From the IMG/VR virus record IMGVR_UViG_2531839661_000010: a stretch of 44,444 nucleotides of DNA; one strand, 5' to 3'. Source of the DNA: a virus (taxonomy: Duplodnaviria > Heunggongvirae > Uroviricota > Caudoviricetes). Below the pieces are notes generated by a model that made no database searches, had not been told where the DNA came from, and saw nothing but the letters and a program-made list of their open reading frames with translations. The translations under genes were made by a program, and so were the position numbers. Below, piece after piece: positions 1,701 through 44,444 of the stretch (positions are counted from its first letter, which is position 1; each line of letters begins with the position of its first letter).

Positions 1701-2570
<870 letters not shown>

Positions 2571-2630: not shown

Positions 2631-3185
2631 TCATTTATCTCCGACCGGAAACTTCTTATACAGTGTCGATATACCAACATCATAGATGATCGCCACCTTC
2701 TGGCGAGGAACGCCTGATGCAATTAATCGTCCGGCCTGCTCCCATTGTTCTGGTGTAAGTTTGGGGCGACGTCCACCAATTCGTCCTTGTGCGCGAGCTG
2801 CTTCCAGTCCAGCTTTTGTTCGTTCAACAATCAGTTCACGCTCCATTTCAGCCAGGGCACCCATCACATGAAAGAAAAAGCGCCCCATTGGGGTACTGGT
2901 ATCAATTGAATCCGTCAGACTACGAAAGTTGATGCCTCGTTCGCGCAACTCCTCCACCAGCACGACAAGATGCCGCATACTGCGCCCCAGTCGGTCCAGT
3001 TTCCAGACTACCAGCGTGTCACCTGCCGATAATGTCCTGAGCAGCTTTTTCAGTCCTGGTCTGTCGGACTTTGTACCGCTTATCTTGTCTTCAAAAATCA
3101 GCTCGCATCCTGCACAGTTCAGCGCATTACGTTGTAGATCTGTGTTCTGGTCATTTGTTGATACGCGTACATAGCCAATAAGCAT
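2631..3185 (-). CDS. Serine-recombinase DNA invertase (Gin/Pin/Hin/Cin family)
   Basis: MLIGYVRVSTNDQNTDLQRNAL...VVWKLDRLGRSMRHL...GINFRSLTDSIDTSTPMGRFFFHVMGALAEMERELIVERT is near-colinear with Gin/Pin as recalled; start placed at the MLIGYVRVST methionine (ATG 3185). Confidence 0.9.
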   Translation of the reverse strand: MLIGYVRVSTNDQNTDLQRNALNCAGCELIFEDKISGTKSDRPGLKKLLRTLSAGDTLVVWKLDRLGRSMRHLVVLVEELRERGINFRSLTDSIDTSTPMGRFFFHVMGALAEMERELIVERTKAGLEAARAQGRIGGRRPKLTPEQWEQAGRLIASGVPRQKVAIIYDVGISTLYKKFPVGDK

Positions 3186-3211
3186 GGTAGATCCCCCTGA
3201 CAAAAGCAGGA

Positions 3212-3586
3212 ATGATGCCATTTGCTCGTTATTTCTGCATTTTCATAAACGTTGGTTTGGGAGAAGCGGCGAAAAGGAATGTGGGGACTGGGGCGAATCA
3301 GATACCAGACATGTCAGCTTATTCATCAGGATCTGGCTGGCAAAAATTGCCTGATGGTTCAATTGAACAGTGGGGAAGAATTAATTTCCCGACTAACGCC
3401 GCGGCGGTATCTACAAATGTGACTTTCCCCATTCCTTTTACGCAGGAGCCAGACGTAGTGATTGTATATGACGGCGGTTTTGGTGGTGGGAATATGTGGG
3501 GCGCAACTAACTGGACGCGAACAGGATTTGTTGCGCATTGTAACTATGGATTTGAAGGTGGAGCTTTCTTTGCGAAAGGGCGTTAA
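3212..3586 (+). CDS. Alternative tail-fibre C-terminal variable segment, silent in this orientation
   Basis: Reading frame runs through the left crossover site in the same frame as the tail-fibre gene at the right site (VGLGEA vs LGLGEG); Gly-rich fibre-tip-like sequence; followed directly by a tail-fibre assembly gene. Confidence 0.55.
3240..3265. repeat. Invertase crossover site (gix/hix-like), left copy
   Basis: TTTTCATAAACGTTGGTTTGGGAGAA; 20 of 26 positions match the reverse complement of 5090-5115, including a 14-nt perfect block TTGGTTTGGGAGAA; lies just upstream of the invertase start. Confidence 0.6.
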
Positions 3587-23169: not shown

Positions 23170-24791
23170 CAGGCCTGTCTCCCTAGCAGCTCCCAGATGT
23201 TCAGGGCTGAATTCATTGGGGCATAGTTGATCATCACCGAGTCGGCAAGGTTTGGCGACCGGGTTCCATCAGGCTGTTTATCAATAACGATTTTTCCCAC
23301 ACCATTAATGGAATAGGTCGGCTGCGAAAGCTCGATGATGAGTTTATCTTTGAGTGCCATGCTACTGCTGATTGAGATGATTTCGTCCGGGTTGTAAGCC
23401 ATACCTTCAACCACGGCGCGCCAGGTATTCTGAAAAAGTTTACGTAACCGCCACCAGCTCTGGGCTTTGGCGTTAGCGAAGAAGTCCTTGTTCAGACGTG
23501 CGGCTTGCCCGTTGTCCCCGCGAACAGCTTCATCATCCGGATCAAATACCGCACCACTACCTCGAAACGGTGTGGCGAGTATTGACGGTCGGCGCGCAGC
23601 GTTACGCAGTTCGTTGATAGCGCGTGCATCGCCGCGAACGCCAGCGCCCAGCCCGTCCTCGTCAAAGCGAAACTCTTCGAGGTTGTCCTGTTCGCAAAAA
23701 CCGAAGACCTTCTCGACGGACTGATAAATGTCGCTGCCCACACCAGACCATTCCCGCACATTTTCCAGGAGGAAGCCATGACGGGTGGAAAAGGCATTTT
23801 TGTCCCTGCCTTCATCAGCGACATCCATCGCGCCAAGTCGTTTGCCTGTTGGCTGGATACCCAGTTTGATATGTGCATCAACGGCAGCCTGTACCCATTC
23901 GGATGGAATCAGAACGCCTTCCGCTGATGCGCTGTAGTTCAGATCAAGTTCCTGTGCCACCACCACCGGATTATCGATTTTCTCGCATTCCCTGCGATAC
24001 CACTCTTCATCCTTGCGAGGATCATCCCGCCAGTGGAATGTGAATACCGGTATCTTCCCGCCATGACGCTTCTGAGCGAACGGGTTAGCCATGCCGTTAA
24101 CTGAACTCAGGTCGATACGGCAACGCGTCGTTTGTGACAACGCCGCATCAATCAGCAGAGGACGCTGAAGGAATGCAGCCTCATCAACCAGATAAAGCGT
24201 GGTACGGTCACCACGACCAATATTATCGCCAGCCTCGCCTTTGATAACGGCACCAGTTTCAGGAAACTCAACACGCATATATGGCGCGTGCTTCTTCTCG
24301 CTCCACGAACCGCGAAACTCTACAGGTAGCGTTTCCACGAACTTGCGTGCCTTCCAGAACAATGCTTTCGGGTCACCAGTGCTGTCGACGTATTCCTCTT
24401 TACGGGAGCCGAAACCGATAACCATTTCTTTGTTGAAGAGACAAAGCGAGCAGGCCAGTCCGATCGCGGTCCAACTGAGCCCCATTTCACGGGATTTTTC
24501 GGTAATACCATTCTCCCGATTGCCCCAGCGTTCCATAATCCAGTGGATCCACTCCTCCTGCTTAGGGAAGAGTAAAAACGGAATGGTCACCGGCAGGCCA
24601 TAATCAATATTACGCGGGTCCGTTGTCATGCCCCAGTCGATGATGAACTGAGCCGGATTGGTTCGGTAAAACTGTTTTAGTGCAGGCAATATTTCAGGAT
24701 TCTGGCGAATGCGCTGTAAGCGTTCCATCCGCCATTCAAAAACCATCTGGTAATCAGGATGTTTAAAATCGAAGGAGAATGGTAACGGCAT
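23169..24791 (-). CDS. Terminase large subunit
   Basis: 540-aa ORF after the small subunit; ATPase-like N-terminal region and nuclease-like C-terminal region with acidic motif [10 protein letters not shown]. Confidence 0.85.
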
Positions 24792-24793
24792 AC

Positions 24794-25345
24794 TTAGCCC
24801 ATCATTTTTCTATACGCCTCTGCAGCCTGCTCCGGCGTTAAGTTGGTAATTTCTGTTCTGACTGGTCCTCCATCAGCGCCAGTCACTTCATTTTTGACGT
24901 TGTCTTTAAACGCCTGAACAGAAACATGCTTACCAAGAAGTTCGAGGTTTTTAACCTTATCAGGCCATTTGATTTTCTTCAGGAGTGCGGCGCTATCTGC
25001 GGATGCCATCTCCACGACATCCATTCCTGATAACGTTGTGCGCCATACCTTAGGCCAGTCTTTAATGGGTTTTAGCTCACCGTTTTGCAAGAGAATGTCA
25101 AGCACATCCATCTGGTCGATTTCAATAAGGCGATTAAGTACATATTCTGCATTAATACCAACAAGATCATTGCGTTGCGCTTTCAGTTCGGCGATTCTTA
25201 ACTTGATGTCAGGTTTTGACAGGTTTTCGGATGCGGTACGGTTAGCTGTCTTTGCGCTGTACCCCGCCCGAATAGCCGCTTGCGTGGCGTTTAAATCGAT
25301 GAGGTACTCGCGACAGAACATTTCTTGCTTGTCGGTGAGTGCCAT
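24794..25345 (-). CDS. Terminase small subunit
   Basis: N-terminus [30 protein letters not shown] is the classic small-terminase opening; directly upstream of the large subunit. Confidence 0.8.
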
Positions 25346-25365
25346 ATAGTACCCTAGGAGATCAA

Positions 25366-25944
25366 ATGGATAATTTGTCTGAGGAATTAAAGAAGCCCCA
25401 CAATGGTAGGCTTAGAGCTTACATTGCTGGATTATTTGATGCAGACAGAAACAAGAGGTGGGTTGACTGCTCCCATGCAATTACGGCCCACAATCAATGG
25501 TCGACAATAACACTTCAACATCTAGGTGCACTAGATTCTCGCCTAGTTAATGATGATGCTGAACTCATCAAGACTGGATATCTAAAAAACCCAATGCACG
25601 ACTTAAGTGATCATATCACTTCTTCCTATCTCTGGGTTTTAGGAATGTATGAACTAGTAAGAACATTAGATCAATTTGCAAAAAATGATGGATCTCCATT
25701 GAATCATGTGCGAAATGAGATACAGATCTATAAACGTAAGATCAATCGTTTAAGAATTCCATTAGCCAAAATGGAAGCCGCAAGTAGTAACTCTGATGAC
25801 TCACCAATTGCATATCCAGGATTGAATCAAGCTTTAGGCCTTGCATGGCAATTGAATGAGCATGACTGGATCTCTCGGCGTGAATTATCTGATGATGCTC
25901 TCACATTATTCGAGCACATAAAACATTCAATGACTAATACTTAA
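25366..25944 (+). CDS. Hypothetical protein encoded antisense to the late operon (accessory insertion)
   Basis: 192-aa ORF with AGGAG six bases before the ATG at 25366; AT-rich; divergent from the small terminase gene with starts about 20 bp apart. Confidence 0.5.
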   Translation: MDNLSEELKKPHNGRLRAYIAGLFDADRNKRWVDCSHAITAHNQWSTITLQHLGALDSRLVNDDAELIKTGYLKNPMHDLSDHITSSYLWVLGMYELVRTLDQFAKNDGSPLNHVRNEIQIYKRKINRLRIPLAKMEAASSNSDDSPIAYPGLNQALGLAWQLNEHDWISRRELSDDALTLFEHIKHSMTNT

Positions 25945-26155
25945 TTAATTCTTCTTTATCTCAGAGAATACCAGGCGGCGTTTCAGTATTGCATATCTTG
26001 ATTACTGTTTTACTAGACGCCGTCCGATGGCTTCTTTGTCCGGTTTTTACATGATTATGTTCCTAATGCTATAGCCATTAAAAAAGCTACTCGTAGGTAG
26101 CTTTGTCTTAATCTTACTCATATTTAAGGTGAAATAATAAAACTAAAACGAAATG

Positions 26156-26362
26156 CTATTTACCAATCGTTTCCTGAATAGCATCAGTCAACCGCGGAAG
26201 GTATTTTATTGCCTCCTCCAAATCATAAGACACGTTTTTCGCATCGGTAGGGGCAGATACGGCGGCCTTGATAATTTCAAGAGCTGCTTTGGTAGCCACT
26301 AAACGCTGGTGCTCAGAATCAGATACTCGGTTATCGCCAGATTTAAAATAATTGTCCATCAT
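26156..26362 (-). CDS. Small hypothetical protein
   Basis: 68-aa ORF between the accessory gene and the KilA-N remnant; no recognisable motif. Confidence 0.3.
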   Translation of the reverse strand: MMDNYFKSGDNRVSDSEHQRLVATKAALEIIKAAVSAPTDAKNVSYDLEEAIKYLPRLTDAIQETIGK

Positions 26363-26468
26363 AAACCCTCCATTAGATAATCAGAGCCTACAGATTACCC
26401 TTCGTCTTCATACGAATAAAGCATTATTGCAGCCCTCACTGAAGGGCTGCCCGGATTAACCAGCAGAA

Positions 26469-26974
26469 TCACACCATTCCGGGCAAATACATTTGCACTT
26501 CATTTGCCGCTCTCTCACGTGCAACATGAAGCAATCTTTTTCGCCCACCAACGCCCCACTTAGCCATTTGGCTTGCGCACTGGCTTATCGCTTTGGTTTC
26601 AGTATTGATGATGTGATCGATTCTATTCAGACGGGACATTGCGCCAACACCGAGACGGACAACCGTTTTGAAAACTTCATAAACTTCGATTTCAAATTCC
26701 GGCTTAATCCATGCTGCATATCTGATTGCCAGAAGTTCAACACCCCACACACCTGGTTCTGCACCACCTTTGATTATTTTAAGTGGCTGAATTTGTTCCA
26801 AAGTGCTTTTATAAAGCGTTTTATCTGCGCGCTACGCAAAAACTGGCTTGGGCGCTGTTGCTCTGTAGCCTCTCCATTTGCAACTGCTGCTGCATGGAGA
26901 TCGTTTAAGTTGTAGCGTCCATCCTCATCAACACGAACGGACACACCATTGACAATAACTGTTGGGTACTTCAT
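26469..26974 (-). pseudogene. KilA-N domain protein gene interrupted by a frameshift
   Basis: ORF 26774-26974 (NGVSVRVDEDGRYNLNDLHAAA...FLRSAQIKRFIKAL) and ORF 26469-26801 (GVWGVELLAIRYAAWIKPEF) together span one KilA-N-like domain but lie in different frames. Confidence 0.5.
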
Positions 26975-27176
26975 CAGTAATTACCTTTTAGTGATGAACC
27001 TTGTCACACAGGATTCCGGCCCACAGAAAGGTACCGATCACCAAACCGGCATCCTCAAGGGTCATCCTGAAAGGTTCTGTGTTCATAAGTCGCGCGTGTG
27101 AAGCGCGTTTACTGCGGACATAAAAAAGCCCCGCATCGCGAGGCTCATTAAATGGACTTTGTGATTTGCAAAAAAA

Positions 27177-27614
27177 TTATTTCAGGCACTGAGTCCTGAT
27201 GTACTCCTGCAGGTAGTTAACCTGCGCGGTTATCCTGTCTATTCCACTTCGGAGACGGTAATAATTGAGTTCAGCATCTGCTGTAAGTCTTGGGCTTTCT
27301 CCATCGCCCATGCTGCTGGCTCCGGTCGTTGACTTTGCACAGGTGGCGGAGACTTGCAGGCGCTTACGACCAGCAGAAACATCAGCACGGAGACTTTCGA
27401 TAGTCGCGTTAGCATCAGCAAGTTCCTTTGTATATCTTGCGTCGAGTTCTGCTACATCACGTTGACGCTTCTGCATATCAGCGATGATGGATGTGGCTTT
27501 ATCGCGCTGCTCTTTGTAGGCGATGGCGTTATCACGGTAATGATTAACAGCCCATGACAGGCAGAGGATGATGCAAATAACCAGAGCGGAGATAATCGCG
27601 GTGACTCTTCTCAT
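27177..27614 (-). CDS. Rz: Spanin, inner-membrane subunit (Rz)
   Basis: N-terminal transmembrane helix, coiled-coil body, position after the endolysin gene, Rz1 embedded in the +1 frame. Confidence 0.85.
27239..27421 (-). CDS. Rz1: Spanin, outer-membrane lipoprotein subunit (Rz1), embedded in Rz
   Basis: 60-aa ORF wholly inside Rz; lipobox LVVSAC followed by proline-rich sequence. Confidence 0.75.
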
Positions 27615-28087
27615 ACCTCAATCTCTCTGACCGTTCCGCCTGCTTCTTTGAATTTTGCAATCAGGCTGTCAGCCTTATGCTCGAACTGACCATAACCAGC
27701 GCCCGGCAGTGAAGCCCAGATATTGCTGCAACGGTCGATAGCCTGACGAATATCACCGCGATCAATCATCGGTAAAGCGCCACGCTCTTTAATCTGCTGT
27801 AGTGCAACAGCGTCCTGGCTTTTCGGAGAGAAGTCTTTCAGCCCAAGCTGCTTACGGTATGCATCCCACCAACGGGAAAGAAGCTGGTAACGTCCGGCTG
27901 CTGTTGATTTGAGTTTTGGGTTTAGCGTGACAAGTTTGCGAGGGTGATCGGAGTAATCAGTGAATAGCTCTCCTCCTACAATGACGTCATAACCATGATT
28001 TCTGGTTTTCTGCCGTCCGTTATCCGTTCCTTCTGACCATGCCACCATATCGAGGAAAGCCTTACGCTGAGGATTAAGATTTTGCAT
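27611..28087 (-). CDS. R: Endolysin, lytic transglycosylase (lambda R)
   Basis: 158-aa protein ...[47 protein letters not shown]... matches lambda R as recalled over nearly its whole length. Confidence 0.95.
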
Positions 28088-28391
28088 TTTTCACCCCTGT
28101 CAGTCGTTCCCAGAAGTACGTCAGTGCAACCGAACCCATCGCACCACTAATCCCCGCTGTCGCGAGAATCATGTAAATACTGAATCCACTTTCGATGCTG
28201 ATCAGGCCACCAATAACACCGGTGAATCCTGATACCACTATCTGAGCCAGAGCATTTATCCAACTCCACGTTGCTTTACTCTGCTTCACATCTATCAGAT
28301 AGCGGACCAGACCGCCCCAACCAGCGATGATCAGCAAAACGAGCCAGAACGCTCCGGCAAGGCTCTCTTTTTCGTGCATATGAATAGCCAA
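28074..28391 (-). CDS. Holin
   Basis: Small protein with two to three transmembrane segments immediately upstream of and overlapping the endolysin gene; not lambda S-like; start is either TTG at 28391 or ATG at 28379. Confidence 0.6.
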   Translation of the reverse strand: MAIHMHEKESLAGAFWLVLLIIAGWGGLVRYLIDVKQSKATWSWINALAQIVVSGFTGVIGGLISIESGFSIYMILATAGISGAMGSVALTYFWERLTGVKNAKS

Positions 28392-28493
28392 TGTTTCGCC
28401 GCCGACAAAAGGCCGGGACGTTAAATGTCAGAAATCAGGCTCACGGGGTAATTTAATGACAAAGCACGGAGTTGATGCTCCCCGCAAGCCTGG

Positions 28494-28519
28494 AATAAAA
28501 AAGCCAGCATGTAGCTGGC
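28494..28519 (-). terminator. tR'-like terminator between Q and the lysis genes
   Basis: Stem GCCAGC/GCTGGC with 5-nt loop followed by six U on the minus strand, in the Q-to-holin intergenic region. Confidence 0.4.
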
Positions 28520-28700
28520 AACAGAGGGTTAAGCAATATCAACTCAACAGCTGAAGACACCCTGTCTGGGGTACGTTGGAAGGATACTCACCGCCCAGAA
28601 ACAGAAAAGCCCAAGGCTTTAAACCTCGAGCTTGAATTTGGATTACTGCCAGTGCGTACAACATTGGCAAAATATCAGATTTATATGAAATATATGCTTT

Positions 28701-29390
28701 TTAATCCAGTTTTGCAATATTTTGCTGTGAAAATGTCGCCTTTTGTTTTGAACGTGTTCTCGTTAGAAGCAATAAAGCTTCGCTATCAAGCTGTAGAAAA
28801 ATGTGCTTCATTGCAACCCAGCGTTCAGTGAATGTCTCAGACCAGTTTTTTGATGTCACTCCCACCAGTGACGCCAGTTCCTGGTATTCATAAGCCTCAC
28901 GCCCTGCCAGTTCGCTCTTCACATCCTGTGCCGCCAGCCAGATCAATTTCTTCAGGCGTTCCAGTGTCTTACCTGCAATTTTTCTGGTACCCAACAGAGT
29001 CTTAAACTCGCTCCATGCCCACTGCGTTATGGCAACCTGATGCTCCCAGCGAATATTTTCACTGTAACTCCACAGCAACCATGCTTTCTGATGCTCATCG
29101 AGAGACAGAACAGCGCGGCGCCATGAAGAGGTTGAAAACTCGACCGGACTGATCAGGGCGACAGATGCACCTTTTGCGTACGACTGTTTACCGGAAATCG
29201 GCGGATTATCCAGCATAATAATCTTGCCAGTTACCTCATCCAGAATGCGTCGCTTCTTTCGTTTGTATGTACCAGTATCAAATTGTGCATGCTCCAGCCA
29301 GGCTTCAAGCTGGCCTTTCGTTGCTCCGCTCAAGTCAGCGGTAGCCACCATGAGTTGCTCGCGGACATACTGTAAATATTGGGTATTCAT
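28701..29390 (-). CDS. Late-gene antiterminator Q (not the lambda Q type)
   Basis: 229-aa ORF in the Q position downstream of rusA and upstream of the late promoter region; not lambda Q-like; family not confirmed. Confidence 0.65.
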   Translation of the reverse strand: MNTQYLQYVREQLMVATADLSGATKGQLEAWLEHAQFDTGTYKRKKRRILDEVTGKIIMLDNPPISGKQSYAKGASVALISPVEFSTSSWRRAVLSLDEHQKAWLLWSYSENIRWEHQVAITQWAWSEFKTLLGTRKIAGKTLERLKKLIWLAAQDVKSELAGREAYEYQELASLVGVTSKNWSETFTERWVAMKHIFLQLDSEALLLLTRTRSKQKATFSQQNIAKLD

Positions 29391-35158: not shown

Positions 35159-35268
35159 TATTAATTCCTATTGGTATTACAATGAATAAATAATAGCAAT
35201 ACGTATTAATCATAACAATAGCAAAACGTGTTTTGACCATCAATACGCAAGCGTATAAATTAAAACTT
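35159..35268. promoter_or_regulatory. Right operator/promoter region (OR, PRM/PR)
   Basis: Three dyads between divergent cI and cro: AATACGTATT (35198-35207), AAAACGTGTTTT (35223-35234), ATACGCAAGCGTAT (35243-35256); TATAAAT just upstream of the cI ATG. Confidence 0.6.
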
Positions 35269-35961
35269 ATGAAAAAAGAAACTCTTGCTGATCGCTTAAA
35301 CCTAGCGATGGAACAATCTGGAATGTCTCAAGGCGCTCTTGCAAAGGCGTCTGGCGTAGCTCAACCCACAATCTGGAGACTGACAAGCGGCAACGCGCGC
35401 GGCTCAACAAAAATTGTTGAAATAGCTAATGCATTGGGTGTTCGAACAGAGTGGCTCTCATCAGGCATAGGCCCGATGAGAAATGACGGTCAACAATTAG
35501 GGAAGCCTACTGCCAACCATCCCAAATACTTCAAGATTGACGTTCTTGATATAGAAGTGAGTGCCGGGCCGGGAGTCATCAACCGTGAGTTTGTAGAAGT
35601 TCTACGCTCGGTTGAGTACTCGTTTGACGATGCTCGTCACATGTTCGATGGTAGGAAGGCAGAAAATATCCGCATCATTAACGTACGCGGTGACAGCATG
35701 TCAGGAACGATTGAACCTGGTGATCTTCTATTCGTTGATATCACGGTTAAATCTTTCGACGGTGATGGTATCTATGCGTTTCTGTACGACGACACAGCCC
35801 ATGTAAAGCGCTTGCAAATGATGAAGGATAAGCTGCTGGTTATCTCTGATAACAAAAGCTACTCACCGTGGGACCCGATCGAGAAAGATGAGATGAACCG
35901 GGTATTTATCTTCGGGAAAGTTATTGGGAGCATGCCGCAGACGTATAGGAAGCATGGATAG
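35269..35961 (+). CDS. cI: CI repressor (HTH plus LexA-like autopeptidase domain)
   Basis: N-terminal HTH MSQGALAKASGVAQPTIWRL and C-terminal S24 peptidase motifs (GDSMSGTIEPGDLLFVD, HVKRL); ATG at 35269 (ORF-track start 35233 is TTG). Confidence 0.85.
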   Translation: MKKETLADRLNLAMEQSGMSQGALAKASGVAQPTIWRLTSGNARGSTKIVEIANALGVRTEWLSSGIGPMRNDGQQLGKPTANHPKYFKIDVLDIEVSAGPGVINREFVEVLRSVEYSFDDARHMFDGRKAENIRIINVRGDSMSGTIEPGDLLFVDITVKSFDGDGIYAFLYDDTAHVKRLQMMKDKLLVISDNKSYSPWDPIEKDEMNRVFIFGKVIGSMPQTYRKHG

Positions 35962-36041
35962 TACCAATTAAAAATTATCAACCGGGCATTGTGCTCATTC
36001 AGTAAAACAACTTAATTATTCATTTTAGAATGGAGAACTTA

Positions 36042-37103
36042 ATGGATACTTTAAAATATGAGAAATTCTCTGATTTTGATCACAATGACCCATTTTTTGA
36101 CTCTTTAAAAAAAGATTATAAAGAGTTTCCTCTTTGGTTAGAAAAAAAAGCCAGAGAAGGAGAATCAGCTTATGTGCTCTATGATGACAAGCATAAAATC
36201 GAAGGTTTTATGTATCTAAAAGAAAATGATGATGCAAATGACATTAATCCAGCGCTCCCACCAGGACGTCATCTAAAGATAGGAACATTCAAATTTGAAT
36301 CTAAAGGCACCCTTCGCGGACAACGATTTCTAAAAAAAGCGTTTGACCATGCATTTTCATCAAAATCTGATGATATTTATGTTACTGTTTTCGACAAACA
36401 CGTCCATCTAATAAAACTTTTCCAAACGTACGGATTTTACATTCATGGTGAAAAAGAAACACATAACGGGAAAGAGTTTGTATATGCGAGGTCTTTGCAT
36501 GAGCCTTATGGTGATATTTTATTAGATTACCCTCGAATAATGACATCAAGGGCCAACAAATATTTACTGGCGATTTATCCCGAATATCACACTAGACTAT
36601 TCCCTGATTCAAAACTTGTAAATGAATCACCAGATATTGTCAAAGATATATCCCATGCTAACAGCATTCATAAAATTTACATATGTGGAATGCGTTCTGT
36701 GATGGGAATGAAAAGAGGAGATATCATTGTCATCTATAGAACCGGAGACAAAAAAGGGCCAGCTCGCTATCGTTCTGTAGCCAGTACATTATGTGTAGTT
36801 GAGAGCGTAAAAAATATTTCTGAATTTTTAAGCGAAGATAGTTTTGTAGACTATTGTATTCGTTTTAGCGTATTTTCTGAAGATGAACTCAGAAAAATCT
36901 ATAAAGAACGTCGATACCCTTTCATTATAAGATTCACATACAATCTGTCTTTGCCAAAGAGACCCAATCGTGCTATTTTAATAGATCATGTGGGGCTAAA
37001 TGGTTCGCGTGCATTCCGATGGAGTCACTTTAAACTCACAAATGAGCAGTTCTTAAAGATCATCGAGTTAGGCAAGATAAATGAAAGTTTTATTATCCAT
37101 TAA
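36042..37103 (+). CDS. Two-domain protein: GNAT-like acetyltransferase-fold N-terminal half plus PUA/ASCH-like C-terminal half
   Basis: HLKIGTFKFESKGTLRGQRFLKKAFDHAF...IYVTVFDKHVHLIKLFQTYGFYIHGE resembles GNAT motifs A and B; C-terminal LLAIYPEYHTRLF...GMKRGDIIVIYRTG resembles a PUA-like barrel; GGAG six bases before ATG 36042; about 30 percent GC. Confidence 0.5.
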   Translation: MDTLKYEKFSDFDHNDPFFDSLKKDYKEFPLWLEKKAREGESAYVLYDDKHKIEGFMYLKENDDANDINPALPPGRHLKIGTFKFESKGTLRGQRFLKKAFDHAFSSKSDDIYVTVFDKHVHLIKLFQTYGFYIHGEKETHNGKEFVYARSLHEPYGDILLDYPRIMTSRANKYLLAIYPEYHTRLFPDSKLVNESPDIVKDISHANSIHKIYICGMRSVMGMKRGDIIVIYRTGDKKGPARYRSVASTLCVVESVKNISEFLSEDSFVDYCIRFSVFSEDELRKIYKERRYPFIIRFTYNLSLPKRPNRAILIDHVGLNGSRAFRWSHFKLTNEQFLKIIELGKINESFIIH

Positions 37104-37458
37104 GCCTGAGTTTGCAGAAAAAATATTGAACGGAACAAAGCGGTTCGAGTTTCGTAAAGGTATATTCAAAAATCCGCAAATTAGCACCGTTGTTATTTAT
37201 GCCACGATGCCATTAGGTAAAGTTGTTGGCCAATTCCGTATTGAATCAATACTAAGTGACGAACCGGAATCTCTTTGGAAAAAGACGGAAAAACACGCAG
37301 GTATTTCTAAGCAATTTTATGACTCATATTATTCAGGTAGAGAAAAGGCCTACGCAATAAAAATTGGTGAAGTGGAAAGATATAAAGAACCAATTCCTAT
37401 CTCTGCTCTAGGTAGTAATATTAAGCCACCACAATCATATCTTTACCTACCTGCGTAA
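37081..37458 (+). CDS. ASCH-domain protein
   Basis: N-terminus MKVLLSIKPEFAEKILNGTKRFEFRKG carries the GxKxxExR-type ASCH signature; 125 aa; start overlaps the upstream gene by 23 bp. Confidence 0.6.
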   Translation: MKVLLSIKPEFAEKILNGTKRFEFRKGIFKNPQISTVVIYATMPLGKVVGQFRIESILSDEPESLWKKTEKHAGISKQFYDSYYSGREKAYAIKIGEVERYKEPIPISALGSNIKPPQSYLYLPA

Positions 37459-41624: not shown

Positions 41625-41946
41625 GGCCTGTCAGTTTCTCAAGATATCCAGACCTACCGCCACCAACTGGATACGAACAGGCCGCCTACAGGCAACACGC
41701 AAAGACCCCACTAAACCAAAATCTCCTTACCTCACAACGCGACAAGCCTGCATTGCGGCGCTTCAGTCTCCGCTGCATACTATCAAGGTGAGCGCGGGTG
41801 ATGGCATAACAGAGGAAAGAAAATGTCACTCTTCCGCAGAAGTGAAATATGGTACGCCAGTTTCACATTGCCGAACGGTAAAAGATTTAAACAGTCTCTT
41901 GGAACAAAGGACAAAAGGCAGGCGACAGAGCTCCATGACAAGCTAA
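41596..41946 (+). CDS. xis: Excisionase (AlpA-like HTH)
   Basis: [26 protein letters not shown] helix-turn-helix; AGAGG before ATG 41596; 3' end overlaps the integrase start by about 124 bp, so the true stop is uncertain. Confidence 0.5.
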
Positions 41947-42986
41947 AGGCTGAAGCATGGCGGGTCAGCAAACTTGGTGAAATACCTGATATGACGTTTG
42001 AGGAAGCGTGTGTCAGGTGGCTCGAAGAGAAAGCACATAAGAAATCACTGGACGATGACAAAAGCCGGATCGGATTCTGGCTTCAACATTTCGCAGGGAT
42101 GCAACTAAGAGACATCACTGAATCAAAAATTTATTCAGCGATGCAGAAAATGACAAACCGGCGTCATGAGGAAAACTGGAAACTCAGGGCAGAAGCATGC
42201 AGAAAAAAAGGGAAACCTGTTCCAGAATACACGCCAAAACCAGCGTCCGTTGCAACGAAGGCTACGCATCTTTCATTTATAAAGGCCCTGCTAAGAGCCG
42301 CAGAGCGTGAATGGAAAATGCTGGATAAGGCACCAATTATTAAAGTGCCTCAACCAAAGAATAAACGGATCCGCTGGCTGGAGCCCCATGAAGCACAAAG
42401 GCTGATTGATGAATGTCCGGAGCCATTAAAGTCTGTTGTTGAATTTGCACTGGCAACAGGCTTAAGACGCTCGAACATCATCAACCTTGAATGGCAACAA
42501 ATAGATATGCAGCGCCGGGTGGCATGGATAAACCCGGAAGAGAGTAAATCAAACCGCGCAATTGGCGTTGCGCTGAATGATACTGCATGTCGCGTATTGA
42601 AAAAACAAATCGGGAATCATCACCGTTGGGTATTTGTGTACAAGGAAAGCTGTACCAAACCAGACGGAACGAAAGCGCCAACAGTAAGGAAGATGCGGTA
42701 TGACGCAAACACAGCCTGGAAAGCGGCGCTGAGACGGGCTGGTATTGATGATTTCAGATTTCACGACTTGAGACACACCTGGGCAAGTTGGCTGGTTCAA
42801 GCCGGAGTCCCGTTGTCAGTGTTACAGGAAATGGGAGGTTGGGAGTCTATCGAAATGGTTCGTCGATATGCTCACCTTGCACCTAATCACCTTACCGAAC
42901 ACGCACGGCAAATAGACTCGATCCTGAACCCATCGGTCCCAAATTTGTCCCAGTCAAAAAATAAGGAAGGTACTAATGATGTGTAA
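41823..42986 (+). CDS. int: Tyrosine integrase (DLP12 IntD-like)
   Basis: [35 protein letters not shown]-terminus and C-terminal catalytic motifs ([15 protein letters not shown]...RRYAHL); ends 14 bp before the tRNA 3' end. Confidence 0.9.
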
Positions 42987-43190: not shown

Positions 43191-44444
43191 TTACGCACGA
43201 ATGGTGTAATCACCAATGCCGATCCACTTGTAAGTGGTCAGTGCTTCCAGCCCCATTGGGCCACGCGCGTGGAGTTTTTGTGTGCTTACCGCCACTTCCG
43301 CACCCAGACCAAACTGGCCGCCGTCGGTAAAACGCGTAGAGGCGTTAACGTAAACAGCGGACGAATCCACTTCGTTAACAAAACGCTGGGCGTTGCGCAT
43401 ATCGCGGGTCAGGATCGCATCGGAGTGTTGTGTGCCGTGTTCACGAATATGGGCGATGGCATCGTCAAGATCGCTGACGATTTTGACGTTCAAATCTAAT
43501 GACAGAAACTCATCGTCATACTCTTCGGCTTTAACAGCAACCACCTTCGCAGGGCCTGCCTGCAACTGCGCCAGTGCAGCTGCATCTGCGTGTAATGTCA
43601 CGCCGCTTTCCGCCATTTGTTTGCTTAATGCGGGCAGGAAGCTATCGGCGATGTTTTTATTCACCAGCAACGTTTCAACCGTATTACATGTGCTCGGACG
43701 CTGAGTTTTCGCGTTGACGATCACTTTTAATGCTTCAGCGATCTCTACACTTTCATCAACGTAAATATGGCATACGCCTATACCACCTGTGATCACCGGG
43801 ATTGTCGACTGTTCACGGCACAGTTTATGCAAACCAGCGCCACCACGCGGGATCAGCATGTCGATGTATTTATCCATACGCAGCATTTCACTGACCAGCG
43901 CACGGTCAGGATTATCAATCGCCTGCACGGCACCCGCCGGTAAGCCGCAGGATTTCAGGGCGTCCTGAATCACCGCCACCGTTGCAGCGTTAGTGCGACA
44001 CGTTTCTTTGCCACCGCGCAGGATCACCGCATTACCGGTTTTCAGGCACAGCGAAGCGACATCAACCGTCACGTTCGGGCGCGCTTCATAAATCACGCCA
44101 ATAACCCCCAGCGGTACGCGACGACGCTCAAGACGCAGGCCGCTGTCCAGTACGCTGCCATCGATTACCTGCCCCACCGGATCGGCGAGGTTACACACCT
44201 GGCGCACATCATCGGCAATGCCTTTCAGCCGTGCGGGCGTCAGTGCCAGACGGTCAAGCATCGCTTCGCCAAGGCCATTGGCACGCGCGTCAGCAACATC
44301 CTGGGCGTTAGCGTTGAGGATGATTTCGCTTTGTGCTTCCAGTTCATCGGCGATTTTTTCCAGCACGCGATTTTTTTCGCGGCTGGAGAGTTGCGCTAAT
44401 TTATACGAGGCTTGCTTCGCGGCAATGCCCATTTGTTCCAGCAT
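43191..44444 (-). CDS. proA: Gamma-glutamyl phosphate reductase
   Basis: 417-aa protein [50 protein letters not shown]... matches E. coli ProA as recalled; start codon is at the window edge. Confidence 0.95.

What the first reader, a model, noticed from the sequence alone, without database searches (positions are those of the whole stretch)
25346..26155. Antisense accessory gene wedged between the lysis cassette and the small terminase gene
A 192-aa ORF (25366-25944) with a strong ribosome-binding site (AGGAG) is encoded on the opposite strand to the entire late operon; its start is about 20 bp from the divergent small-terminase start, and it is AT-rich. Late transcription reading through from the Q-dependent promoter would be antisense to it, so it is likely expressed in the lysogen and silenced during lytic growth, a pattern seen for prophage-encoded defence or fitness genes. 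I could not assign a domain by eye.
Basis: partly seen in the sequence, partly recalled or inferred. Interest (0 to 1): 0.5.

Follow-up and report, generated by a model that had tools for sequence, protein, structure and literature searches.

The report
Unknown accessory gene in prophage defence hotspot
A real 192-residue gene of unknown function lies backwards in a prophage's late operon, at the spot just before the small terminase gene where sibling prophages carry a proven anti-phage gene, so it is a good but untested candidate for a new defence gene.

Summary
The ORF at 25366-25944 (+) has an AGGAG ribosome-binding site, starts 20 nt from the divergent terS start codon, has 38.9% GC against 48.7% for the window, and opposes the whole Q-dependent late operon.

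It is a genuine gene. dN/dS is 0.12-0.27. The identical protein occurs in hundreds of E. coli and E. albertii draft assemblies. The family has 884 clusters at 50% identity.

It matches no Pfam, NCBIfam, PHROG or PADLOC model and no PDB sequence. A confident AlphaFold model (pLDDT 88) resembles only generic helical bundles.

The gene is a swappable cassette (25346 to about 26016 or 26073). Sibling prophages with the same flanks carry unrelated antisense genes there, all starting 19-27 nt from terS. One of these is a Tai/HepS-family solo HEPN protein, an experimentally validated prophage defence. One related phage has no insert.

Homologues in other genera also sit mostly between the lysis and packaging modules of prophages.

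This prophage carries two further defence-catalogue genes, PD-T4-3 and PDC-M11A.

My reading is a lysogen-expressed accessory gene, probably anti-phage, of unknown biochemistry. No promoter could be identified, and neither expression nor function was tested. Interest is moderate: a new member of a known kind.

The parts
25366..25944 (+). Coding sequence of the 192-aa accessory protein (22.0 kDa, pI 6.35, soluble); the end coordinate includes the stop codon
   Evidence: It is conserved and under purifying selection. The AlphaFold model has pLDDT 88.4.
25356..25360 (+). Shine-Dalgarno sequence AGGAG, 5 nt upstream of the ATG
   Evidence: Read directly.
25346..25365 (.). 20-nt divergent spacer. 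It holds the ribosome-binding regions of both the ORF and terS, which overlap in the palindrome CCTAGG (25353-25358).
   Evidence: Sequence similarity to sibling prophages ends within a few bases of the terS start codon.
25346..26016 (.). Variable, AT-rich cassette. The right boundary is about 26016 against E. coli T28R and about 26073 against E. coli EC931.
   Evidence: blastn boundaries and sequences read directly. GC is 38.3%. No copy was found in 5426 complete E. coli genomes, although the flanks match.
26019..26031 (+). Weak terminator-like hairpin downstream of the ORF, at the start of the DNA shared with T28R
   Evidence: The fold is not significant (z = -1.1).
26083..26104 (.). 9-bp hairpin with an A-run on one side and a T-run on the other. 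It looks like a bidirectional terminator, stronger on the - strand where T6 follows. It lies in the conserved flank between the cassette and the 68-aa gene.
   Evidence: z = -2.5 on the + strand, -1.9 on the - strand. It is conserved in T28R and EC931.
24794..25345 (-). Small terminase gene (Terminase_2), the left flank of the cassette. Its first 90 nt are unusually conserved at the DNA level.
   Evidence: E = 2.6e-40. The first 90 nt are 84-87% identical across 75 species-level loci, against 24-28% just upstream.
26156..26362 (-). 68-aa late-strand ORF (phrog_5901, unknown function), the right flank. It is present whichever cargo occupies the site.
   Evidence: It shows no similarity to AtiEcA.
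26469..26974 (-). KilA-N gene, split here into 66-aa and 110-aa ORFs (a probable pseudogene)
   Evidence: It is an intact 176 aa in T28R, EC931 and L003 and split again in L118 and L120.
27177..28391 (-). Lysis cassette (holin, lysozyme, Rz)
28701..29390 (-). Late antiterminator Q gene (229 aa). It defines the late operon that reads antisense through the ORF.
   Evidence: The equivalent 229-aa product in L118 and L119 carries PF06323.

Best explanation
The ORF is a real, horizontally exchanged accessory gene (a moron). It occupies a cassette hotspot that begins exactly at the terS start codon, at the junction of the lysis and packaging modules of a lambdoid E. coli prophage. Sibling prophages hold unrelated single genes in the same antisense orientation at the same site, and one of those is a Tai/HepS-family defence protein.

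Inferred by analogy, not shown: the gene is transcribed in the lysogen from a promoter inside the 5' end of terS, terminated by the hairpins at 26019-26104, and opposed by Q-dependent late transcription after induction.

Its product is a soluble 22-kDa protein: a helical bundle plus a small beta-sheet, with invariant W32, W90, E96, R99 and W161 and a near-invariant R-x-R-I-P-L-A-K loop.

I think it most likely acts alone as an anti-phage protein, sensing or binding a component of a superinfecting phage. Its biochemical activity is unknown.

My confidence is about 0.9 for 'accessory cassette at a defence hotspot' and about 0.4-0.45 for 'anti-phage function'.
For: Real gene:
- dN/dS is 0.12-0.27.
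- The search found 95 homologues and 884 cluster representatives.
- The identical protein occurs on 212 or more contigs of E. coli and E. albertii, always next to this terS.

Cassette:
- The flanks match T28R and EC931, but the insert is replaced by unrelated antisense genes of 182 aa and 174 aa.
- Strains 1223 and CREC-544 carry 72-aa and 151-aa antisense genes there.
- Phage vB_EcoM-606R2 has Rz directly followed by terS, with no insert.
- 21 of 73 species-level terS loci have a divergent ORF of at least 90 aa abutting terS, in 15 sequence clusters.

Defence allele at the same site:
- A profile of the 174-aa family hits the solved HepS structure 9oij at E = 7e-7, aligned across the RNxxxH active site.
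- The 174-aa protein matches phi80 TaiEcA at E = 1.9e-21.
- Tai and HepS are experimentally validated (PMC11364771; PMC13043305).

Position of homologues:
- Homologues of 32-86% identity sit antisense between lysis genes and terS in Klebsiella prophages and in most IMG/VR viral contigs that carry one.
- Others lie in cargo zones of Aeromonas and Acinetobacter prophages, a Vibrio filamentous prophage and a P4-like island in Serratia.

The same prophage carries PD-T4-3 (E = 2.7e-140) and PDC-M11A (E = 2e-133) at two other accessory loci.

Foreign composition: 38.9% GC against 48.7% for the window.
Against: - No sigma-70-like promoter stands out upstream. The consensus scan found none on the + strand. 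My position-weight scan gave a best score of 9.5, against a background of 8.5 +/- 1.9 for stretches of equal length.
- The protein matches no PADLOC model, so it is not in the 2023 defence catalogue.
- It has no recognisable catalytic motif and no conserved partner gene.
- About half of the distant homologues examined lie in ordinary chromosomal contexts with no mobile-element or defence neighbours. The family as a whole may therefore have a general cellular role.
- Sharing a hotspot with defence genes is association, not proof.
Confidence: 0.5

Rival explanations
1. It is a lysogenic-conversion or fitness gene unrelated to phage defence. It would be expressed from the prophage, as lambda bor is, and help the host with stress tolerance, regulation or interaction with an animal host.
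For: It has the same accessory-gene architecture and foreign composition. Many distant homologues lie in ordinary chromosomal neighbourhoods without defence genes. In Aeromonas it sits beside catalase, superoxide dismutase and ankyrin genes. It matches no defence-catalogue model.
Against: The alternative occupant that could be identified at this exact site is a defence protein. The other two accessory loci of this prophage match defence-catalogue models. The protein has no signal peptide or membrane segment of the kind typical of surface conversion factors.
Confidence: 0.2
2. It serves the phage's own lytic cycle, for example as a counter-defence protein or as a modulator of lysis or packaging, and is expressed after induction or infection rather than in the lysogen.
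For: It keeps its place between the lysis and packaging modules across distant homologues and across different terS families. One Klebsiella locus has an Acb2/Tad1-like counter-defence gene in the same inter-module region. No lysogenic promoter was identified.
Against: It is antisense to the only strong lytic transcription unit in the region. A related phage lacks the insert altogether. The site is filled by unrelated genes in siblings with identical terS and head genes, so it is not needed for packaging or lysis. Homologues also occur in a filamentous prophage, next to an integrase and in chromosomes.
Confidence: 0.15
3. It is a selfish addiction or toxin module that stabilises the prophage or the cassette, with the late antisense transcript or another factor controlling its toxicity.
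For: It is a solitary, mobile, AT-rich cassette. A Serratia homologue lies near a HicAB toxin-antitoxin pair. The T28R-type cargo at the same site persists in a heavily degraded prophage of E. coli C.
Against: There is no adjacent antitoxin-sized ORF in the cassette. No toxin-family match was found. Many homologues are single genes in ordinary chromosomal contexts.
Confidence: 0.08
4. It is not a functional gene: a chance or decaying ORF in AT-rich spacer DNA.
For: No family, fold or promoter could be assigned.
Against: dN/dS is 0.12-0.27. Five residues are invariant and 22 are nearly invariant across 107 members, which share only 28-81% identity with it. The AlphaFold model is confident. There are 884 family clusters.
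Confidence: 0.02

Closest known systems
TaiEcA/AtiEcA of coliphage phi80 (tail assembly inhibition; PMC11364771)
   Same: The layout is the same: Q, holin, lysozyme, Rz, a Rha or KilA-N gene, then a single gene of about 200 aa on the opposite strand just upstream of the packaging module. [quoted passage not shown] A Tai homologue occupies exactly the ORF's site in E. coli EC931 and SW4848.
   Different: The ORF shows no sequence relationship to TaiEcA (BLASTP E = 0.015 over 18 residues; hhalign probability 0.4%). It has no RNxxxH motif. No cargo-specific late-strand partner like atiEcA is evident: the neighbouring 68-aa ORF is unrelated to AtiEcA and is present with every cargo.
HepS, the solo HEPN abortive-infection protein of Salmonella prophage Gifsy-1 (PMC13043305; PDB 9oij)
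   Same: It is a single-gene, partner-less prophage accessory protein of about 200 aa, often encoded on prophages. A HepS-like protein is an alternative cargo at this site.
   Different: The ORF family has no conserved histidine and no Rx4-6H motif. Profile comparison with the HepS-like cargo found nothing. [quoted passage not shown]
Tab/anti-Tab of Pseudomonas phage JBD26 (PMC10884400)
   Same: It is a minus-strand moron beside the terminase genes within the late operon. It has its own promoter and is constitutively expressed from the prophage for defence.
   Different: Tab is an unrelated 83-residue protein lying between terS and terL. It has a cognate anti-Tab gene on the late strand. No such partner is identified here.
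bor of phage lambda (my own knowledge, not tested here)
   Same: It is a lysogen-expressed accessory gene on the opposite strand, between the lysis genes and the cos/terminase end of the late operon.
   Different: Bor is a small outer-membrane lipoprotein. The ORF product has no signal peptide or hydrophobic segment and no Pfam match.
Defence hotspots of P2-like phages and P4-like satellites (PMC9122126)
   Same: These are fixed positions in temperate elements where unrelated, mostly small anti-phage systems replace one another between conserved flanks.
   Different: The element type and position differ. Here the hotspot abuts the terS start codon of Terminase_2-type lambdoid prophages, and its cargos are single antisense genes, most without any known family.

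Membership tests
Moron (independently transcribed prophage accessory gene) | Present, absent or replaced between otherwise closely related phages | tested here: met
   An empty site in vB_EcoM-606R2. Four unrelated alternative genes between the same flanks. Boundaries at 25346 and 26016 or 26073.
Moron (independently transcribed prophage accessory gene) | Base composition different from the surrounding phage genes | tested here: met
   38.9% GC against 48.7% for the window and 46-52% for terS and terL.
Moron (independently transcribed prophage accessory gene) | Own promoter and terminator | tested here: inconclusive
   No promoter rises above background. Terminator-like hairpins lie at 26019-26031 and 26083-26104, and only the second is better than shuffled sequence.
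Moron (independently transcribed prophage accessory gene) | Expressed from the repressed prophage | not testable with these tools
   This needs RNA-seq or reporter data from a lysogen.
Tai (tail assembly inhibition) defence proteins | Sequence homology to TaiEcA | tested here: not met
   BLASTP E = 0.015 over 18 residues. hhalign probability 0.4%. tblastn of the ORF against 50,697 phage records found only two Acinetobacter phage records, not phi80.
Tai (tail assembly inhibition) defence proteins | Antisense position in the Q-dependent late operon, upstream of the packaging module | tested here: met
   A true Tai homologue sits at the identical site in EC931.
Tai (tail assembly inhibition) defence proteins | Adjacent late-strand counter-defence gene (ati) | tested here: not met
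   The 68-aa late-strand neighbour has no similarity to AtiEcA. It is conserved whichever cargo is present.
Tai (tail assembly inhibition) defence proteins | Blocks tail assembly of the infecting phage | not testable with these tools
   This needs infection assays and electron microscopy.
HEPN superfamily (HepS-like solo HEPN) | Conserved Rx4-6H active-site motif | tested here: not met
   No histidine is among the invariant or near-invariant columns. The conserved R130-I-P-L-A-K135 has lysine where the histidine would be, and it lies in a low-confidence loop.
HEPN superfamily (HepS-like solo HEPN) | Detectable profile or fold similarity to HEPN proteins | tested here: inconclusive
Catalogued anti-phage systems (PADLOC-DB 2.0.0) | Match to any of the 5027 models | tested here: not met
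   No family matched at E <= 1.
Lambda Bor-type lipoprotein | Signal peptide or lipobox and Bor-family similarity | tested here: not met
   The maximum 19-residue hydropathy is 0.67 and GRAVY is -0.57. There is no Pfam match.

The most novel reading that the evidence does not exclude
The ORF represents a large, unnamed protein family (884 clusters at 50% identity, no Pfam model, no solved or viral structural relative). The family would be a new single-protein anti-phage defence working by a mechanism unlike HEPN, nuclease or NADase effectors. The site it occupies, which begins at the terS start codon and is bounded by an unusually conserved 90-nt terS 5' end, would be a general exchange point for at least 15 further uncharacterised single-gene cargos across Enterobacterales.
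Probability: 0.3. Interest if true: 0.65.

Novelty: new member of a known kind. Interest (0 to 1): 0.5.

Why it matters
If the gene protects lysogens, it adds a widespread, structurally unassigned protein family to the list of single-gene defences.

The terS-proximal site could then be mined systematically. Here it yielded one validated family (Tai/HepS-like), one DUF4145 protein and more than a dozen families with no annotation.

The work also gives a second natural example of the phi80 taiEcA arrangement, a gene set against the late operon, in which the proposed switch-off by Q-dependent antisense transcription can be tested.

If the gene turns out to have no phage-related phenotype, it remains an ordinary prophage moron.

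Tried and rejected
- Family searches on the ORF found nothing with Pfam, PADLOC, PHROGs or NCBIfam. Pfam scans of 43 and then 107 family members also found nothing. The only Pfam line, Rap1a immunity protein at E = 0.13, is noise.
- PDB sequence and profile searches gave one chance-level hit, a terpene synthase at E = 0.008 and then 0.07.
- The AlphaFold-database library was not available.
- I suspected by eye that the conserved R-x-R-I-P-L-A-K was a degenerate HEPN motif. I rejected this because there is no conserved histidine, the motif lies in a loop, and profile comparison found no match.
- I checked for relatedness to the other cargo families at the site and to TaiEcA. There is none.
- I looked for a conserved partner gene. 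Downstream neighbours differ in every lineage.
- I looked for informative domain fusions among longer family members. Most extensions have no recognisable feature. One protein (P0178) has a C-terminal tail with PilZ-like motifs by eye, which I did not test.
- Promoter search gave nothing above background. A composite promoter, with a conserved TTG(C/T)TT inside terS plus a cassette-supplied -10, looks plausible for some other cargos. In this window the spacing is only 14 nt.
- Rfam found nothing meaningful in 24700-27200.
- A literature search for the protein's accession numbers found no paper.

Full report
**Observation.** The + strand carries an ORF from ATG 25366 to the TAA ending at 25944 (192 aa). 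AGGAG lies at 25356-25360. The terS start codon (CAT on the + strand) is at 25343-25345, 20 nt away. All surrounding late genes are on the - strand:
- Q 28701-29390
- holin 28074-28391
- lysozyme 27611-28087
- Rz 27177-27614
- a KilA-N gene split into two ORFs, 26469-26974
- a 68-aa ORF, 26156-26362
- terS 24794-25345 (Terminase_2, E = 2.6e-40)
- terL and portal

GC is 38.9% for the ORF (GC3 31.8%) against 48.7% for the window. The description is therefore correct. The one refinement is that two small late-strand genes separate the ORF from the lysis cassette.

**It is a gene.** Nei-Gojobori dN/dS against four homologues of 84-99% nucleotide identity is 0.12-0.27. A word-indexed search found 95 homologues in Escherichia, Enterobacter, Klebsiella, Pantoea, Serratia, Aeromonas, Vibrio, Marinomonas, Acinetobacter and metagenomes, all named hypothetical. 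An exhaustive profile search found 884 representatives of 50%-identity clusters at E <= 0.001, nearly all 160-230 aa single-domain proteins.

The identical protein is on record on 212 contigs (442 index blocks) of E. coli and E. albertii draft assemblies. Megablast found no copy in 5426 complete RefSeq E. coli genomes.

**The protein.**
- It is 22.0 kDa with pI 6.35. Its maximum 19-residue hydropathy is 0.67, so it has no membrane segment or signal peptide.
- No Pfam, NCBIfam, PHROG or PADLOC model matches it.
- None of 107 diverse family members matches a Pfam model at E <= 0.001.
- PDB sequence and profile searches give only a chance-level line.
- AlphaFold2 with a 43-sequence alignment gives a confident model (pLDDT 88.4, pTM 0.83). 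It has helices over residues 2-127, a low-confidence loop at 128-151, a three-stranded sheet at 152-170 and a C-terminal helix at 171-190.
- Across 107 members that share 28-81% identity with it, W32, W90, E96, R99 and W161 are invariant. R28, D57, S87, Y95, R128, R130, P132, K135, D145 and R171, among others, are at least 90% conserved.
- The most conserved motif, R-L-R-I-P-L-A-K, lies in the low-confidence loop.

**The locus is a cassette hotspot.** E. coli T28R and EC931 match the window on both sides but not across the ORF. Similarity stops within a few bases of the terS start codon and resumes at 26017 (T28R) or 26073 (EC931).

In its place they carry unrelated genes of 182 aa and 174 aa, on the same antisense strand, starting 19 and 27 nt from terS. 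Strains 1223 and CREC-544 carry a 72-aa and a 151-aa antisense gene, both starting 22 nt from terS.

Counts in the 5426 complete genomes:

| Cargo at the site | Complete E. coli genomes |
|---|---|
| 182-aa type (T28R) | 91 |
| 72-aa type (strain 1223) | 16 |
| 151-aa type (CREC-544) | 6 |
| 174-aa type (EC931) | 2 |
| This ORF | 0 |

The megablast query matched 203 genomes, nearly all only over its terS 5' end. Phage vB_EcoM-606R2, which shares terL and the portal at 98% identity, has Rz followed directly by terS.

In one genome per species, 21 of the 73 loci with a related terS and enough upstream sequence have a divergent ORF of at least 90 aa that starts within 33 nt of terS. These fall into 15 sequence clusters, and none is this ORF. 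They are mechanical ORFs, and a few with GTG or TTG starts may be spurious. Of ten representatives, one is a DUF4145 protein, one is DUF6173, the rest have no Pfam match, and none matches PADLOC.

**A validated defence family at the same site.** The 174-aa cargo and its relatives at two other species' loci share an invariant R-N-x-x-x-H motif. Their profile hits the solved HepS structure (9oij) at E = 7e-7, with that motif aligned to the HepS active-site stretch R-N-K-Y-A-H. BLASTP to phi80 orf63 (TaiEcA) gives E = 1.9e-21 at 30% identity over 160 residues.

TaiEcA blocks tail assembly of infecting lambdoid phages, and a phi80 lysogen needs it to exclude HK544 and HK578 (PMC11364771). HepS is a Gifsy-1 abortive-infection ribonuclease (PMC13043305).

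The phi80 map reads Q, holin, lysozyme, Rz, rha, orf63 on the opposite strand, orf64, then cos. This parallels the window. [quoted passage not shown]

The ORF studied here is not related to Tai, to HepS-like proteins or to any other cargo family at the site.

**Where homologues live.** In E. coli the ORF is always flanked by this terS and the 68-aa gene, while the lysis, Q and early modules vary. Other contexts:
- Klebsiella prophages (81% identity): antisense between Rz and a different, 334-aa terS, alongside a P4 cII-like gene and a Beta_protein-family gene (in P4 these belong to the gop-beta-cII locus, from my own knowledge), and in one locus an Acb2/Tad1-like gene.
- IMG/VR: 11 viral contigs carry homologues of 32-100% identity. 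In most of the eight I inspected, the gene lies antisense between spanin, lysozyme and holin genes on one side and terS on the other. In L111/L112 only a spanin-like neighbour was recognised, and in L110 no terS was seen. I identified these neighbours by eye from ORF translations.
- Aeromonas prophage: a cargo island with TIR, HNH and KAP NTPase genes, and also catalase and superoxide dismutase.
- Acinetobacter prophages: next to the integrase.
- Vibrio: at the end of a filamentous prophage, followed by an ADP-ribosyltransferase toxin-like gene.
- Serratia: a P4-like island with HicAB.
- Marinomonas and four metagenomic bacteria: ordinary chromosomal settings, in two cases near a NOV_C or a TIR gene.

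No neighbour is conserved across these contexts.

**Expression logic.** Divergence begins at the terS start codon, so a promoter must lie in the antisense strand of the terS 5' end. The consensus scan found none there. My weight-matrix scan gave a best score of 9.5, against 8.5 +/- 1.9 for any 317-nt stretch of the window.

The first 90 nt of terS are 84-87% identical across 75 species-level loci, including raised third-position identity (0.72 against 0.53). The sequence just upstream is at chance level, 24-28%. This fits a conserved recombination boundary. It may also carry a weak shared -35 element, but I cannot show that.

Downstream there is a weak hairpin at 26019-26031 and a better 9-bp hairpin at 26083-26104, flanked by an A-run and a T-run. 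The second lies in the conserved flank and looks like a terminator on both strands.

For phi80 the literature reports TaiEcA protein in the uninduced lysogen and a reduced level when Q is expressed.

**The rest of the prophage.** The window holds a whole prophage between a host AraC-type gene (228-980) and an aldehyde dehydrogenase gene (43191-44444). The integrase is at 41823-42986 and the cI-like repressor at 35233-35961. Two other accessory genes match defence-catalogue models:
- 1746-2570 (+) matches PD-T4-3, a GIY-YIG protein, at E = 2.7e-140.
- 36030-37103 (+), just after the repressor gene, matches PDC-M11A at E = 2e-133.

**Explanation and rivals.** Shown: a conserved, selected, foreign-composition gene in a replaceable antisense cassette, at a site that elsewhere holds a validated defence gene, in a prophage whose other accessory loci match defence models.

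Inferred: lysogenic expression, antagonism by late transcription, and an anti-phage role carried out by the protein alone. I put the accessory-cassette reading at about 0.9 and the defence role at 0.4-0.45.

The rivals are:
- a non-defence fitness factor (0.2)
- a lytic-cycle or counter-defence function (0.15)
- an addiction or toxin module (0.08)
- a non-functional ORF (0.02)

**Comparison and novelty.** The gene works like Tai, Tab or bor in genome architecture, but it is not a member of any of those families. It fails the HEPN motif test. The architecture and the idea of prophage defence hotspots are known. The protein family is unnamed and its fold unassigned, and I did not find the terS-abutting hotspot with its many unknown cargos described beyond the remark on Tai location. 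I rate it a new member of a known kind, with interest 0.5.

Noticed in passing
window 1746-2570 (+): A 274-aa ORF at the tail-fibre end of the prophage, beside the DNA invertase gene (2631-3221). It matches the PADLOC model for the single-gene defence PD-T4-3 (E = 2.7e-140) and the Pfam LEM-3-like GIY-YIG domain.
   Followed up: partly
window 36030-37103 (+) and 37081-37458 (+): A 357-aa ORF directly downstream of the cI-like repressor gene, on the same strand (the position rexAB holds in lambda, from my own knowledge). It matches the candidate defence model PDC-M11A (E = 2e-133). An overlapping 125-aa ORF follows and may be its partner.
   Followed up: partly
window 26469-26974 (-): The KilA-N gene is split into 66-aa and 110-aa ORFs. 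It is an intact 176 aa in T28R, EC931 and L003, and it is also split or missing in other E. coli carriers of the ORF (L117, L118, L120). This suggests recurrent decay.
   Followed up: partly
window 25256-25345 (- strand, first 90 nt of terS): The 5' end of terS is 84-87% identical at the nucleotide level across 75 loci from different species, including third codon positions (0.72 against 0.53 further in). Identity drops to chance immediately upstream of the start codon. This may be a recombination boundary or a regulatory element.
   Followed up: partly
window 26083-26104: A conserved 9-bp hairpin between an A-run and a T-run, just downstream of the 68-aa late gene. On the - strand it looks like an intrinsic terminator inside the late operon, which Q-modified polymerase would presumably read through.
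   Followed up: partly
window 25353-25358: The palindrome CCTAGG in the 20-nt spacer supplies purine-rich ribosome-binding sequence to both divergent genes: AGGAG for the ORF and TAGGG for terS.
   Followed up: no
L001 3265-3813; L131 3006-3554: The 182-aa alternative cargo is present in 91 of 5426 complete E. coli genomes, including E. coli C and an E. coli B laboratory strain. In E. coli C it survives beside terS and terL in a heavily degraded prophage. By eye it has YRGE, CWTTD and ENEFTV motifs reminiscent of an R-S-E ADP-ribosyltransferase, but it matches no Pfam, PADLOC or PDB entry.
   Followed up: partly
L124 7001-8545 (Vibrio sp. T9): A 46%-identical homologue of the ORF lies at the end of an integrated filamentous phage, after the Zot and secretin genes. 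An ADP-ribosyltransferase exotoxin-like gene follows it directly.
   Followed up: no
L004-L008 (Klebsiella prophages), about 4100-8000 in L004-L007: The region between the lysis genes and terS also carries a Beta_protein gene next to a P4 cII-like gene and, in one locus, an Acb2/Tad1-hairpin protein. Defence-like and counter-defence-like cargo therefore share this inter-module region.
   Followed up: no
L047 and L074; L062 and L077 (loci): Other cargos abutting terS include a 148-aa protein with a PD-(D/E)xK-like pattern by eye, and a 212-aa protein with an N-terminal zinc-ribbon-like motif plus DUF4145 (E = 1.7e-11).
   Followed up: partly
protein P0178 (278 aa): One distant family member has a C-terminal extension with RxxxR and N-x-S-x-x-G motifs that look like a PilZ domain by eye. 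I did not test this.
   Followed up: no
window 28450-28900: A second low-GC stretch (0.39-0.41) lies between the Q and holin genes. It holds a 59-aa + strand ORF (28652-28831) that is called as a gene in a related assembly (L003 13383-13562).
   Followed up: no
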